IMG/VR virus record: IMGVR_UViG_2690316099_000007
Length of the DNA stretch: 10,779 nucleotides
DNA from: a virus
Lineage: Duplodnaviria; Heunggongvirae; Uroviricota; Caudoviricetes
Direction: 5' to 3' (one strand)
In this document: positions 1 to 3,040 of the stretch, piece by piece
How the letters are laid out: each line of letters opens with the position of its first letter
Position numbering within the stretch: the first letter of the stretch is position 1
Notes under the pieces: generated by a model
Database searches by the model: none
What the model was told of the DNA's origin: nothing
The model's input: only the letters and a program-made list of their open reading frames with translations
Translations under genes and position numbers: made by a program

Positions 1-10
1 TGATCTAACT

Positions 11-40
11 AAAAAGGCCGCTCTGCGGCCTTTTTTCTTT
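11..40. terminator. Bidirectional rho-independent terminator
   Basis: Seen in sequence: GC hairpin GGCCGC(16-21)/GCGGCC(25-30) with a 3-nt loop, preceded by A5 (11-15) and followed by T6 (31-36), so it can act on either strand. Confidence 0.5.
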
Positions 41-130
41 CAATAACTGATTGATTTATAATATGTTATGCCGCTTCGTTCCACTCTGTGAGATAGGGTG
101 CCTTATCCGGCCTTACCCTGGCAACCGATT

Positions 131-152
131 GACGGGGGATTGCTCCCCCGTC
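131..152 (-). promoter_or_regulatory. Stable stem-loop just 3' of the hok-like CDS (candidate hok mRNA 3' structure)
   Basis: Seen in sequence: perfect inverted repeat GACGGGGGA-TTGC-TCCCCCGTC. No adjacent U-tract on the minus-strand transcript, so this looks like a 3' stabilising or fold-back element as in hok-family mRNAs rather than a terminator. That role is inference. Confidence 0.35.
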
Positions 153-161
153 GCGGTTTCC

Positions 162-302
162 TTACTGCTTACACTGTAAGAACGCCGCAAACTCCGCTCC
201 CCAGAAGCTCATCCGTATTTCACACAGCGAACCGTGCAACATCCAGATGATGAGGATTGCCGTCACGCAGAACGTGATGGTCGTAAGCGATTTTTGCGAC
301 AT
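162..302 (-). CDS. hok: Hok/Gef-family type I toxin (46 aa small membrane protein)
   Basis: Manual reverse-complement translation: MSQKSLTTITFCVTAILIIWMLHGSLCEIRMSFWGAEFAAFLQCKQ*. ATG at 302-300, TAA at 164-162, AAGGAG Shine-Dalgarno 5-6 nt upstream. Hydrophobic N-terminal helix followed by the Hok-family signature SLCE(I/L)R...E(F/L)AAFL.CK, recalled from HokA/Hok of plasmid R1. Absent from the ORF track because it is under 60 aa. Confidence 0.85.
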   Translation of the reverse strand: MSQKSLTTITFCVTAILIIWMLHGSLCEIRMSFWGAEFAAFLQCKQ

Positions 303-432
303 AGCACTTGCTCCTTTTCCGGAGAGGCGCTAACCTTTCACTTGTCAAGGTAATGCGGTTAGGGCCTCGGTTAAACAGAGATGTTTTCCGGGGCCTTTCC
401 ACATCTGGCCTTCGGGTATTCCCTCCGACCAT
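220..432 (-). CDS. mok: mok-like overlapping reading frame (70 codons) that would couple translation to hok
   Basis: ORF track lists a 70-aa minus-strand ORF that begins 130 nt upstream of the hok start and ends inside hok in another frame. This is the mok/hok overlap geometry known from plasmid R1, where mok is also 70 codons. The peptide itself has no recognisable features, so this is inference. Confidence 0.45.
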   Translation of the reverse strand: MVGGNTRRPDVERPRKTSLFNRGPNRITLTSERLAPLRKRSKCYVAKIAYDHHVLRDGNPHHLDVARFAV

Positions 433-472
433 CAGCCGAAAGGCACCCGCGCGTAATCTATCGCTTTTTTGT
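395..472 (+). ncRNA. sok: Putative Sok-like antisense RNA (boundaries approximate)
   Basis: Inference from established hok/sok architecture: the antisense RNA is encoded opposite the mok translation-initiation region (mok ATG at 432-430). A T6 run at 465-470 on the + strand could be its 3' end. No strong terminator hairpin or clear sigma70 promoter was found, hence low confidence. Confidence 0.2.
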
Positions 473-1880
473 TACTCCGGCAATTCTGCCTGTTAATTCT
501 GAGGTAAAGGCAAGCTCATCTGATTGTTTCCCCTGTGTGAAGCTGGCAGATCATGCCACGGGATATCTTCTGAAGAGTGAACGCCGGAGGCGTGTTNNNN
601 NNNNNNNNNNNNNNNNNNNNNNNNNNNNNNNNNNNNNNNNNNNNNNNNNNNNNNNNNNNNNNNNNNNNNNNNNNNNNNNNNNNNNNNNNNNNNNNNNNNN
701 NNNNNNNNNNNNNNNNNNNNNNNNNNNNNNNNNNNNNNNNNNNNNNNNNNNNNNNNNNNNNNNNNNNNNNNNNNNNNNNNNNNNNNNNNNNNNNNNNNNN
801 NNNNNNNNNNNNNNNNNNNNNNNNNNNNNNNNNNNNNNNNNNNNNNNNNNNNNNNNNNNNNNNNNNNNNNNNNNNNNNNNNNNNNNNNNNNNNNNNNNNN
901 NNNNNNNNNNNNNNNNNNNNNNNNNNNNNNNNNNNNNNNNNNNNNNNNNNNNNNNNNNNNNNNNNNNNNNNNNNNNNNNNNNNNNNNNNNNNNNNNNNNN
1001 NNNNNNNNNNNNNNNNNNNNNNNNNNNNNNNNNNNNNNNACTTATAGATTTACTATAGCATTGTATTATTTGNNNNNNNNNNNNNNNNNNNNNNNNNNNN
1101 NNNNNNNNNNNNNNNNNNNNNNNNNNNNNNNNNNNNNNNNNNNNNNNNNNNNNNNNNNNNNNNNNNNNNNNNNNNNNNNNNNNNNNNNNNNNNNNNNNNN
1201 NNNNNNNNNNNNNNNNNNNNNNNNNNNNNNNNNNNNNNNNNNNNNNNNNNNNNNNNNNNNNNNNNNNNNNNNNNNNNNNNNNNNNNNNNNNNNNNNNNNN
1301 NNNNNNNNNNNNNNNNNNNNNNNNNNNNNNNNNNNNNNNNNNNNNNNNNNNNNNNNNNNNNNNNNNNNNNNNNNNNNNNNNNNNNNNNNNNNNNNNNNNN
1401 NNNNNNNNNNNNNNNNNNNNNNNNNNNNNNNNNNNNNNNNNNNNNNNNNNNNNNNNNNNNNNNNNNNNNNNNNNNNNNNNNNNNNNNNNNNNNNNNNNNN
1501 NNNNNNNNNNNNNNNNNNNNNNNNNNNNNNNNNNNNNNNNNNTTGAAATTATACTGGATAGCGGTGTTTCCAAAGCTCCCCCAGCGTAAGGCATTCTNNN
1601 NNNNNNNNNNNNNNNNNNNNNNNNNNNNNNNNNNNNNNNNNNNNNNNNNNNNNNNNNNNNNNNNNNNNNNNNNNNNNNNNNNNNNNNNNNNNNNNNNNNN
1701 NNNNNNNNNNNNNNNNNNNNNNNNNNNNNNNNNNNNNNNNNNNNNNNNNNNNNNNNNNNNNNNNNNNNNNNNNNNNNNNNNNNNNNNNNNNNNNNNNNNN
1801 NNNNNNNNNNNNNNNNNNNNNNNNNNNNNNNNNNNNNNNNNNNNNNNNNNNNNNNNNNNNNNNNNNNNNNNNNNNNNNNN

Positions 1881-2695
1881 ATTTCTTCACACTGCTTTTT
1901 CCAAAGTGGATAATGTTTTTCTTTATAAAGAGAAATATCATCTGCTGATACAGGGAAATACTCCTGTTGACTAAATGACTTGATGATTTTTTCTAGTGAT
2001 TGTGGGGTAGTTTGTTCATTGTCAAAGTTTGTAACCAATGGGAATGCATCCGTTAGTTGACAAAGCAAATTATCAACTTCATATTCAGATAAAGCTGTAT
2101 AATAAGGAAGTACAATATTTAATTGCTCGTCATCGGCTACTTTAATGCTGAAATCGGGCATAGACTGAGTGAATTGCTTCAGNNNNNNNNNNNNNNNNNN
2201 NNNNNNNNNNNNNNNNNNNNNNNNNNNNNNNATTTGTTTATCCTTTTCATCTGGCTCAGCAGGAAGCAACCATGAAGAAGGCACTTTATAGCAGATTATA
2301 TTATGTTTTATTGCTGAAAAACGTGGACCGCTATCATTGGTAATGATTGCCACCTCCGAATCTGGATCGTCAGCGCAATANNNNNNNNNNNNNNNNNNNN
2401 NNNNNNNNNNNNNNNNNNNNNNNNNNNNNNNNNNNNNNNNNNNNNNNNNNNNNNNNNNNNNNNNNNNNNNNNNNNNNNNNNNNNNNNNNNNNNNNNNNNN
2501 NNNNNNNNNNNNNNNNNNNNNNNNNNNNNNNNNNNNNNNNNNNNNNNNNNNNNNNNNNNNNNNNNNNNNNNNNNNNNNNNNNNNNNNNNNNNNNNNNNNN
2601 NNNNNNNNNNNNNNNNNNNNNNNNNNNNNNNNNNNNNNNNNNNNNNNNNNNNNNNGCCTTGTAATAATGATACATACTTCATCACAAGCAGTAAT
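1881..2695 (-). CDS. AT-rich cargo gene, unknown function (visible in three fragments: 2695-2656, 2380-2232, 2182-1881)
   Basis: Seen in sequence: one minus-strand frame is open across all 100 codons of 1881-2182 and all 49 codons of 2232-2380 despite AT-rich composition, while every + frame has stops there. Visible peptides: ...YCADDPDSEVAIITNDSGPRFSAIKHNIICYKVPSSWLLPAEPDEKDKQ... and ...LKQFTQSMPDFSIKVADDEQLNIVLPYYTALSEYEVDNLLCQLTDAFPLVTNFDNEQTTPQSLEKIIKSFSQQEYFPVSADDISLYKEKHYPLWKKQCEE.... No family recognised. True start and stop are masked, and whether the fragments are one gene or more is unknown. Confidence 0.45.
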
Positions 2696-3040
2696 NNNNN
2701 NNNNNNNNNNNNNNNNNNNNNNNNNNNNNNNNNNNNNNNNNNNNNNNNNNNNNNNNNNNNNNNNNNNNNNNNNNNNNNNNNNNNNNNNNNNNNNNNNNNN
2801 NNNNNNNNNNNNNNNNNNNNNNNNNNNNNNNNNNNNNNNNNNNNNNNNNNNNNNNNNNNNNNNNNNNNNNNNNNNNNNNNNNNNNNNNNNNNNNNNNNNN
2901 NNNNNNNNNNNNNNNNNNNNNNNNNNNNNNNNNNNNNNNNNNNNNNNNNNNNNNNNNNNNNNNNNNNNNNNNNNNNNNNNNNNNNNNNNNNNNNNNNNNN
3001 NNNNNNNNNNNNNNNNNNNNNNNNNNNNNNNNNNNNNNNN

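What the first reader, a model, noticed from the sequence alone, without database searches (positions are those of the whole stretch)
100..600. hok/mok/sok-type type I toxin-antitoxin locus missed by the ORF track
A 46-aa minus-strand ORF (162-302) with a perfect AAGGAG Shine-Dalgarno encodes a Hok/Gef-family peptide (hydrophobic helix plus SLCEIR...EFAAFLQCK). It is overlapped in another frame by a 70-codon ORF whose size and geometry match mok of plasmid R1, and followed by a perfect 9-bp stem-loop (131-152). It sits directly beside the foreign cargo block, a context in which such loci may stabilise the adjacent DNA or act in abortive infection. The antisense Sok RNA and promoters could not be pinned down.
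Basis: partly seen in the sequence, partly recalled or inferred. Interest (0 to 1): 0.5.

Follow-up and report, generated by a model that had tools for sequence, protein, structure and literature searches.

The report
Known prophage Hok/Sok toxin-antitoxin locus
This is a genuine but ordinary Hok/Sok-type small-toxin/antisense-RNA module at the end of a P2-like prophage, already annotated in public E. coli genomes; the supposed "mok" reading frame beside it is a chance ORF.

Summary
Window 162-302(-) encodes a 46-aa Hok/Gef peptide: Pfam HOK_GEF 29 bits against a cut-off of 22, PHROG_251 at E 1e-22. It carries the seven residues conserved across the family. Around it sit most of the canonical hok mRNA elements:
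- a promoter and a 5' tac element (440-448);
- a leader matching Rfam's sok/hok-leader model (48 bits, E 8.5e-10, below the gathering score);
- an SD hairpin;
- a 3' stem-loop (131-152) with compensatory changes;
- a 3' fbi element (96-104) pairing 9/9 with tac.

Sok can now be placed by homology with the annotated K-12 SokB and SokC. Its promoter is at 308-336(+) and the RNA runs from about 344 to 404.

The "mok" claim fails. The 70-codon ORF starts 17 nt into the mRNA, and five of ten close relatives have no such ORF.

The locus is 100% identical to a RefSeq-annotated "Hok/Gef family protein" gene in E. coli and 94% identical to phage P88 DNA. It belongs to "cluster 72" of a 2025-26 Hok survey, which reports a peptide one residue different as toxic.

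An ogr gene separates it from the cargo block, and it is not part of that cargo. Verdict: already known, low interest.

The parts
455..483 (-). hok promoter: -35 TTGCCG (478-483), 17-nt spacer, -10 TAGATT (455-460). The predicted +1 is G448.
   Evidence: Read from the sequence. The -10 box and its distance to GGGUGCC are conserved in 9 of 10 relatives. At 8/12 consensus matches it falls below the threshold of the generic promoter scan.
440..448 (-). tac element, GGGUGCCUU, at the 5' end of the hok mRNA.
   Evidence: Start of the Rfam RF01794 match. Pairs 9/9 with 96-104. Invariant within the clade.
289..448 (-). hok mRNA leader. It contains the tac stem, the ucb box GGCCCC (390-395), the GAGG box (365-368), the Sok target and the hok SD hairpin.
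   Evidence: Rfam sok model RF01794, which models the sense strand from +1 to the hok AUG: 48.4 bits, E 8.5e-10, gathering score 59. K-12 hokC and hokB and an R1-type locus score 118, 110 and 87 bits. Relatives of the window score 42-50 bits.
308..336 (+). Predicted Sok promoter: -35 TTGCTC (308-313), 17-nt spacer, -10 TAACCT (331-336).
   Evidence: Same layout as upstream of the annotated K-12 sokB (TTGCCG, 17 nt, TAAGAT, 7 nt, then G). The -10 complement AGGUUA is invariant in 10 relatives. It is a weak consensus match (6/12).
344..404 (+). Predicted Sok antisense RNA, about 57-61 nt: a 5' single-stranded tail (344-360), a long hairpin (361-397) and a short U-rich end.
   Evidence: Ends mapped from the annotated SokC and SokB through the Rfam alignments. 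The fold resembles those of SokB and SokC. Expression has not been shown.
311..316 (-). hok Shine-Dalgarno AAGGAG, held in a local hairpin with the upstream CUCC.
162..302 (-). hok coding sequence: 46 aa plus the stop codon.
   Evidence: The DNA is 100% identical to the gene for RefSeq WP_000078923.1, annotated 'Hok/Gef family protein'.
131..152 (-). 3' stem-loop (9 bp, GCAA loop). It is the likely 3' protective hairpin of the processed, active mRNA, not the transcript terminator.
   Evidence: Four pairs show compensatory double changes in relatives. The role is inferred from R1 (PMC9841398).
96..104 (-). fbi element, AAGGCACCC, the fold-back partner of tac.
   Evidence: 9/9 Watson-Crick pairs with 440-448. 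The partner lies roughly 55-65 nt after the hok stop in the 10 clade members where it was located, and in Erwinia and an R1-type locus, and it covaries with tac in the last two. The minimum-free-energy fold of 448..94 closes the two ends, z = -5.9.
220..432 (-). 70-codon ORF proposed as mok. It is listed here only to exclude it from the system.
   Evidence: It starts at mRNA +17 and is absent or in a different place and frame in close relatives.

Best explanation
Window 96-483 is a complete hok/sok-family type I toxin-antitoxin module. It lies at the extreme end of a P88-like (Xuanwuvirus, P2-like) prophage integrated next to ihfA, just downstream of the phage ogr gene.

Proposed mechanism, mostly by analogy with plasmid R1:
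1. A stable mRNA of about 355 nt runs from G448 and is made in a closed, untranslatable form. Its 5' tac element (GGGUGCCUU) pairs with the 3' fbi element (AAGGCACCC).
2. Slow 3' trimming back to the hairpin at 131-152 removes fbi.
3. tac then pairs with the GGCCCC box (390-395). This opens the leader and exposes the Sok target.
4. While the DNA is present, the short unstable antisense Sok RNA (about 344-404, + strand) pairs with the opened leader. The duplex is destroyed, by RNase III in R1.
5. If Sok synthesis stops, through loss of the element or shut-off of host transcription, the 46-aa Hok peptide is made, inserts into the inner membrane and kills the cell.

Shown here: family membership of the peptide, the RNA elements and their conservation or covariation, and the genomic setting.

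Inferred: transcript ends, Sok expression, processing, and the biological role. The most likely role is stabilisation of the prophage. Phage exclusion or help with lysis are alternatives.

One departure from R1: this clade has no conserved mok frame, so how Sok blocks hok translation here is not settled.
For: Peptide:
- Pfam HOK_GEF scores above its cut-off; PHROG_251 gives E 1e-22; the best NCBIfam match is HokA.
- It is 43% identical to HokA and 33% to R1 Hok. The residues the survey reports as conserved in more than 80% of Hok peptides (M1, C16, T18, L30, C31, E32, E41) all have counterparts here: M1, C12, T14, L26, C27, E28, E37.
- There is a hydrophobic N-terminal segment.

RNA:
- The Rfam hok-leader model matches at E 8.5e-10.
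- tac and fbi pair 9/9 and covary in Erwinia and R1-type loci.
- The full-length fold closes its two ends, z = -5.9. The truncated form switches to tac/GGCCCC pairing.
- The 3' hairpin shows four compensatory pairs.
- The Sok promoter and hairpin are laid out like those of annotated K-12 SokB and SokC.

Context and distribution:
- Window 85-596 is 100% identical to a RefSeq locus annotated 'Hok/Gef family protein' beside ogr and ihfA.
- The same module occurs in phage P88, beside lom in Stx phages, and on IncI and IncC plasmids.
- Homology with the Stx-phage copies spans exactly 96-469.

Toxicity: survey peptide 72_1621, one residue different, was cloned and is not among the 3 of 45 constructs reported as non-toxic.
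Against: - The Rfam match is below the family's gathering score (48.4 against 59).
- The Sok promoter matches the sigma-70 consensus in only 6 of 12 positions, and the Sok terminator has only three U. The generic scan found no promoter.
- The window lacks the 143 bp that carry the native terminator just after fbi in E2863 and P88. With the longer read-through 3' end, the minimum-free-energy fold prefers the open form, although the centroid keeps tac/fbi.
- No transcript or toxicity data exist for this exact sequence.
- The survey found hok enriched in prophages but not near defence systems. That does not favour a defence role.
Confidence: 0.88

Rival explanations
1. The module works chiefly as a phage-exclusion (abortive infection) device for the lysogen. 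An infecting lytic phage shuts off host transcription, Sok decays, and Hok kills the cell before the invader completes its cycle.
For: R1 hok/sok on a high-copy plasmid reduced T4 plating by 42% and plaque size by about 85%, as cited in PMC8621323. The locus sits in a prophage that also carries a variable cargo gene (PIN-domain protein) two genes away.
Against: hok loci are not enriched near defence systems (12% against 9.4% expected by chance). The peptide has no PADLOC match. hok is present in P88 without the cargo. The reported T4 effect was modest and was measured at high copy number.
Confidence: 0.2
2. The module serves the prophage's own lytic cycle, as reported for hokW-sokW of Stx phage Sp5. 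On lytic development Sok falls and Hok helps lysis and phage release. Here, ogr (late-activator) transcription could read straight into hok and across the Sok promoter, because the ogr stop codon is 10 nt from the hok -35 with no terminator between them.
For: In Sp5, sokW disappears and HokW appears after mitomycin C, and phage yield halves without the locus (PMC8621323). The ogr-hok arrangement is conserved in E2863, in an IncC-borne element and in a Salmonella prophage.
Against: hokW belongs to a different Hok cluster: MKQQKAM..., 51 aa, identified from the primers. The same cluster-72 module also sits in unrelated contexts, beside lom in Stx phages and on IncI plasmids, without ogr. Read-through and interference are pure inference.
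Confidence: 0.15
3. The locus is an inactive relic. The hok-like ORF and RNA elements are decaying remains with no current activity.
For: Several K-12 chromosomal hok loci are inactivated by insertion sequences (IS186 next to hokC, IS150 in mokA). The window has lost 143 bp just downstream of fbi, including the native terminator and the prophage end. An E. albertii plasmid copy is clearly degenerate.
Against: The ORF, promoters, tac, fbi and hairpins are all intact and 100% identical to the allele in E2863 and the other top-scoring genomes; about 1,180 of 5,426 complete E. coli genomes hold at least 80% of window 1-596. A peptide one residue different is reported as toxic.
Confidence: 0.07

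Closest known systems
Hok 'cluster 72' of Escalera-Maurer et al. (bioRxiv 10.1101/2025.08.07.668861); RefSeq WP_000078923.1 'Hok/Gef family protein'; phage P88 gp52 'MokW-like host killing'
   Same: The DNA is identical to the RefSeq gene. The peptide is 45/46 identical to the tested peptide 72_1621 and 44/46 to P88 gp52. The position is the same, between ogr and the prophage end.
   Different: One residue differs (T8 against A8 in 72_1621). The window lacks the 143 bp downstream that hold the native terminator and att end. The survey analysed only the coding sequence, not Sok, mok or the mRNA structure.
hok/mok/sok (parB) of plasmid R1
   Same: Peptide family; tac/fbi fold-back; tac/ucb switch; SD hairpin; 3' protective hairpin; and a cis-antisense Sok with its promoter overlapping the hok SD region.
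   Different: Only 33% peptide identity. The leader is 22 nt shorter (hok AUG at +147 against +169). There is no conserved mok frame, and the Rfam score is below the gathering threshold. The setting is a prophage, not a plasmid.
Chromosomal hokA (and hokB/sokB, hokC/sokC) of E. coli K-12
   Same: HokA is the nearest named relative: 43% identity, MxQK start, SLCE and AAFLxCK motifs, best NCBIfam hit. The layouts of SokB and SokC allow Sok to be mapped here.
   Different: The score is far below the HokA equivalog cut-off (34 against 89 bits). K-12 mokB and mokC start at +89 and +94 with ATG, and there is no counterpart here.
hokW-sokW of Stx2 prophage Sp5 (PMC8621323)
   Same: A prophage-borne hok/sok with experimentally shown toxin, antitoxin RNA and a phage-related phenotype. 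PHROG_251 lumps both under 'MokW-like'.
   Different: hokW encodes a different, HokC-like 51-aa peptide (MKQQKAM...DYESEK). The window's relative in Sp5 and 933W is a second hok next to lom, with no feature annotated under it in the 933W and VT2-Sakai records.

Membership tests
Hok/Gef toxin family (Pfam PF01848) | The peptide scores above the curated family threshold. | tested here: met
   29.0 bits against a cut-off of 22, E 8.1e-7, residues 9-44. PHROG_251 E 1e-22.
Hok/Gef toxin family | Conserved residues (M1, C16, T18, L30, C31, E32, E41 in logo numbering) and an N-terminal hydrophobic helix. | tested here: met
   M1, C12, T14, L26, C27, E28 and E37 align with R1 Hok and HokA-C. The residue list comes from the survey. 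Kyte-Doolittle 15-residue mean is above 1.9 for windows starting at residues 5-13, except 10 and 11 (1.89).
Hok/Gef toxin family | The peptide is toxic on expression. | not testable with these tools
   By the survey's text, peptide 72_1621 (45/46 identical) and 72_1589 were tested. Only three other constructs of 45 were non-toxic.
hok/sok type I TA locus (R1 paradigm) | The hok mRNA leader matches the Rfam covariance model RF01794. | tested here: inconclusive
   48.4 bits, E 8.5e-10, full-length match to the model but below the gathering score of 59. The whole clade scores 42-50 bits.
hok/sok type I TA locus | Long-range tac/fbi pairing between the mRNA 5' and 3' ends. | tested here: met
   9/9 Watson-Crick pairs between 440-448 and 96-104. 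The minimum-free-energy fold closes the ends, z = -5.9. The elements covary in Erwinia and R1-type loci at a similar distance from the stop codon.
hok/sok type I TA locus | A stable 3' stem-loop upstream of fbi that ends the processed mRNA. | tested here: met
   131-152, 9 bp, with four compensatory pairs. Processing itself is not testable here.
hok/sok type I TA locus | A cis-encoded antisense Sok RNA with its own promoter, complementary to the leader. | tested here: inconclusive
   The promoter layout and hairpin are homologous to those of annotated SokB and SokC. The promoter consensus is weak, and no transcript data are available.
hok/mok/sok (three-gene form) | A mok reading frame that starts within the Sok target, downstream of the GAGG SD, and is translated into the hok SD region. 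| tested here: not met
   The 70-codon ORF starts at +17. An in-frame TTG at +101 exists in the window, but P88, Stx-phage, IncI, O157-plasmid and Salmonella relatives have no ATG/GTG/TTG ORF reaching the hok SD. For the four of these examined, no near-cognate start was found either, apart from an ATA at +131 in the IncI copy. Frame 0 is closed by the invariant UAG of GGUUAGCGCC.
hok/sok type I TA locus | Post-segregational killing or stabilisation of the carrying element. | not testable with these tools
   This needs loss or curing assays.

The most novel reading that the evidence does not exclude
Cluster-72 hok loci, including this one, may be a mok-less branch of the family. The tac/ucb/GAGG switch and Sok are retained, but no leader ORF reaches the hok SD in half of the close relatives. 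Sok would then have to control Hok without translational coupling, for example purely through RNase III-mediated decay or through leader refolding. In the P2-like setting, ogr read-through could additionally tie Hok release to lytic development.
Probability: 0.35. Interest if true: 0.3.

Novelty: already known. Interest (0 to 1): 0.15.

Why it matters
It matters little for discovery. It confirms that a small toxin gene which a length-filtered ORF list may skip is a standard Hok/Sok module, and it supplies working coordinates for its RNA parts. Two points have modest value. First, the widespread prophage and plasmid Hok cluster 72 appears to lack the mok leader frame that R1 needs for Hok translation. 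That is a cheap, testable question about how type I antitoxins act. Second, Stx phages such as Sp5 and 933W carry a second hok, with no feature annotated under it in the 933W and VT2-Sakai records, besides the studied hokW. This could confound single-deletion experiments.

Tried and rejected
- Rfam at gathering thresholds found only STnc540 at 1-97, nothing for hok or sok. The match appeared only with E-value thresholds.
- The generic promoter and terminator scan found no promoter and only the 130-153 hairpin. The promoters were therefore placed by homology instead.
- I first took the 'MokW-like' label to mean the studied hokW. The primers in PMC8621323 show that hokW is a different peptide.
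- I looked for mok in all three frames, and in frames +1 and +2 also with near-cognate starts. It is not conserved.
- I asked whether the Sok-tail target is hypervariable, as a specificity region would be. The conservation profile showed no clear signal.
- Codon-position bias in hok is weak (24:16:28) and not decisive.
- PADLOC gave nothing for Hok or for the PIN cargo protein.
- The P2 defence hotspot paper (PMC9122126) does not mention hok, and its hotspot is next to cos, not here.
- A literature search for mok-less hok loci found nothing relevant.
- I did not run the large protein-database searches or structure prediction. The family assignment was already clear.
Full report
**What is in the sequence**

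On the minus strand, window 162-302 is a 46-codon ORF: MSQKSLTTITFCVTAILIIWMLHGSLCEIRMSFWGAEFAAFLQCKQ. AAGGAG sits at 311-316, 8 nt upstream of the ATG. A 9-bp stem with a GCAA loop lies at 131-152. A 70-codon ORF overlaps hok at 220-432 in another frame. The raw observations are therefore correct. Much of the window beyond 596 is masked with N.

**Is the peptide a Hok?**

Yes.
- Pfam HOK_GEF scores 29.0 bits against a cut-off of 22, E 8e-7.
- PHROG_251, labelled 'MokW-like host killing', gives E 1e-22 over the full length.
- The best NCBIfam model is HokA, well below its equivalog cut-off.
- Aligned with sequences taken from annotated records, the peptide is 43% identical to HokA, 33% to R1 Hok, and 24-26% to HokB and HokC.
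- It has counterparts of all seven positions that a recent survey found conserved in more than 80% of 1,264 Hok peptides (M1, C16, T18, L30, C31, E32, E41). It also has the C-terminal Cys found in a third of them.
- Its N-terminal half is strongly hydrophobic.

**Is the RNA machinery there?**

At gathering thresholds Rfam reports nothing for this locus. With E-value thresholds, the 'sok' model RF01794 matches 448..289 on the minus strand end to end: 48.4 bits, E 8.5e-10, gathering score 59. Running the same model on annotated loci shows that it represents the sense strand, from the hok mRNA +1 to the hok AUG. K-12 hokC and hokB score 118 and 110 bits, an R1-type locus 87, and relatives of the window 42-50. 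The clade is thus a divergent branch that Rfam's threshold excludes.

- The match fixes the mRNA 5' end at G448.
- Upstream lie TTGCCG (478-483) and TAGATT (455-460), 17 nt apart. They are conserved in relatives but too weak for the generic scan.
- The first nine bases, GGGUGCCUU, are perfectly complementary to AAGGCACCC at 96-104, 58 nt after the hok stop.
- The minimum-free-energy fold of 448..94 closes the two ends in a 15-bp interrupted helix, z = -5.9.
- The pairing recurs at roughly the same distance (55-65 nt after the hok stop) in the 10 clade members where it was located. It covaries in more distant loci: Erwinia GGGUGCUCA/UGAGCACCC, and R1-type GGCGCUUGA/UGAAGCGCC.
- When the RNA is cut back to the 131-152 hairpin, the 5' end instead pairs with GGCCCC (390-395). 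That releases the CCGAGGCC segment it occupied in the closed form. This is the tac/fbi to tac/ucb switch described for R1 (PMC9841398).
- The 131-152 hairpin shows four compensatory double changes across the clade. By analogy with R1 it is the protective end of the processed mRNA, not the terminator.

**Where is Sok?**

K-12 annotation gives SokC and SokB coordinates. Through the Rfam alignments, their 5' ends map to about window 344 and their 3' ends to about 404.

Upstream on the + strand the window reads TTGCTC (308-313), 17 nt, TAACCT (331-336), 7 nt, then G344. This is the same layout as sokB: TTGCCG, 17 nt, TAAGAT, 7 nt, G. The complement of the -10 box is invariant in ten relatives.

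The predicted RNA has a 17-nt single-stranded 5' tail, a long hairpin (361-397) and a short U-rich end, like SokB and SokC. The consensus match of the promoter is weak (6/12), and no expression data exist. This is therefore a homology-based placement.

**The mok claim**

In R1, mok starts at a GAGG-preceded AUG about 58 nt upstream of hok, and its translation up to the hok SD is required for Hok synthesis (PMC9841398). An R1-type locus, hokC and hokB have such ATG-initiated frames at +112, +94 and +89.

The window's 70-codon ORF starts at +17, inside the tac stem, and ends 80 nt into hok. Only its length resembles mok.

The same frame does hold a TTG at +101, in the right region. However, P88 (94% identical DNA), the Stx-phage copy, the IncI and O157-plasmid copies and a Salmonella copy have no ATG/GTG/TTG ORF reaching the hok SD in any frame. 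For the first four, frames +1 and +2 were also checked for near-cognate starts; none was found apart from an ATA at +131 in the IncI copy. Frame 0 is closed by the UAG inside the invariant GGUUAGCGCC, which is also the complement of the Sok -10 box. Other relatives have ORFs at differing positions and frames.

I conclude that mok is not a conserved part of this clade and that the 70-codon ORF is a chance ORF. How Sok prevents Hok translation without mok is open. The survey's authors deliberately did not analyse mok.

**Genomic setting**

- Window 85-596 is 100% identical to E. coli E2863. There RefSeq annotates a 'Hok/Gef family protein' (WP_000078923.1), followed by an ogr/Delta zinc-finger gene, a 500-aa PIN-domain gene, a gpD-like tail gene and the tail operon, all next to ihfA.
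- About 1,180 of 5,426 complete E. coli genomes hold at least 80% of window 1-596.
- Phage P88 and other Xuanwuvirus (P2-like) phages carry the same hok, 94-97% identical. P88 has nothing between gpD and the ogr region.
- The cargo is therefore an insertion on the far side of ogr, and hok is a backbone-end accessory. In the window, ogr occupies 493-753. Its stop codon is 10 nt from the hok -35 and there is no terminator between them.
- The module also occurs beside lom in Stx phages, including 933W and VT2-Sakai (82% DNA identity, 76% peptide identity), and on IncI and IncC plasmids.
- Homology with the Stx copies spans exactly 96-469, which is the transcription unit. This fits a self-contained mobile cassette.

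**Literature**

- The survey by Escalera-Maurer et al. (bioRxiv 10.1101/2025.08.07.668861) places these peptides in its cluster 72, one of its 16 abundant clusters. It cloned 72_1621 (A8 instead of T8) and 72_1589 (the Stx-phage form). Only three other constructs of 45 were reported as non-toxic.
- The same survey finds hok enriched in prophages (23% against 5% expected by chance) but not near defence systems (12% against 9.4%).
- The experimentally studied prophage locus hokW-sokW of Sp5 encodes a different, HokC-like 51-aa peptide. There it aids lysis and phage release after induction.

**Function**

- The molecular mechanism is inferred from R1: a closed full-length mRNA, 3' processing, Sok pairing and decay. 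It is supported by the conserved RNA elements, with the mok step missing.
- For the biological role I favour stabilisation of the prophage by killing cells that lose it. Phage exclusion and help with lysis are alternatives. None can be decided from sequence.

**Peculiarity of this window**

Between positions 85 and 86 the window lacks 143 bp that E2863 has in full and P88 in part. These hold a strong terminator about 15 nt after fbi and the prophage att end. No complete E. coli genome in the collection has this junction in one piece. If the deletion is real, hok transcripts would run on to the bidirectional ihfA terminator at 11-39. For that longer RNA the predicted minimum-free-energy fold is the open form, while the centroid keeps tac/fbi. 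I do not over-read this.

**Verdict**

The finding is real and its main interpretation is right. It is an already annotated, catalogued member of a well-known family, its mok component is spurious, and its link to the cargo block is incidental.

Noticed in passing
window 85|86: 143 bp that E. coli E2863 has in full, and phage P88 in part, are missing here. They hold the native rho-independent terminator just after fbi and the prophage att end. None of 5,426 complete E. coli genomes shows this junction in one piece. It may be a real deletion that traps the prophage, or an artefact of how the window was prepared.
   Followed up: partly
window 1-97 (+): Rfam STnc540 match (39.7 bits, gathering score 38), truncated at its 5' end. 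It corresponds to the ihfA 3' flank with its bidirectional terminator at 11-39, so the prophage sits immediately downstream of ihfA.
   Followed up: partly
window 493-753 (-), mostly masked: ogr/Delta-like zinc-finger late activator gene (Pfam Ogr_Delta on the identical E2863 copy). Its stop codon lies 10 nt from the hok -35 with no terminator between, so ogr transcription could read into hok and across the Sok promoter.
   Followed up: partly
window ~754-3040 (-), mostly masked: The cargo between ogr and gpD matches the E2863 gene for a 500-aa PIN_4-domain protein in its unmasked pieces. It has no PADLOC match and is absent from phage P88. This site is not the cos-proximal P2 hotspot described by Rousset et al.
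   Followed up: partly
window N runs (597-1039, 1073-1542, 1598-1880, 2183-2231, 2381-2655, 2696-3040): Offsets to E2863 shift by 30-93 nt across each N run, so the masked stretches are longer than the corresponding E2863 sequence. Either the source differs there or the mask lengths are not faithful.
   Followed up: no
L013 (phage 933W) 2501-2638; VT2-Sakai 44701-44838: Stx phages 933W and Sp5 carry a second hok (cluster 72, 76% identical to the window peptide) just downstream of lom, with no feature annotated under it in these records. It is separate from the experimentally studied hokW-sokW.
   Followed up: partly
L015, L017, L019: Near-identical copies of this E. coli-type hok locus appear in assemblies labelled Planococcaceae, Vagococcus and Xanthomonas pisi. 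These are probably contaminating enterobacterial contigs.
   Followed up: no
L012 (IncFII plasmid, R1-type hok): In this R1-type variant the mok ATG (+112) is in frame with hok (71 codons), whereas in R1 itself mok is out of frame. The mok frame is therefore labile even within the R1 group.
   Followed up: no
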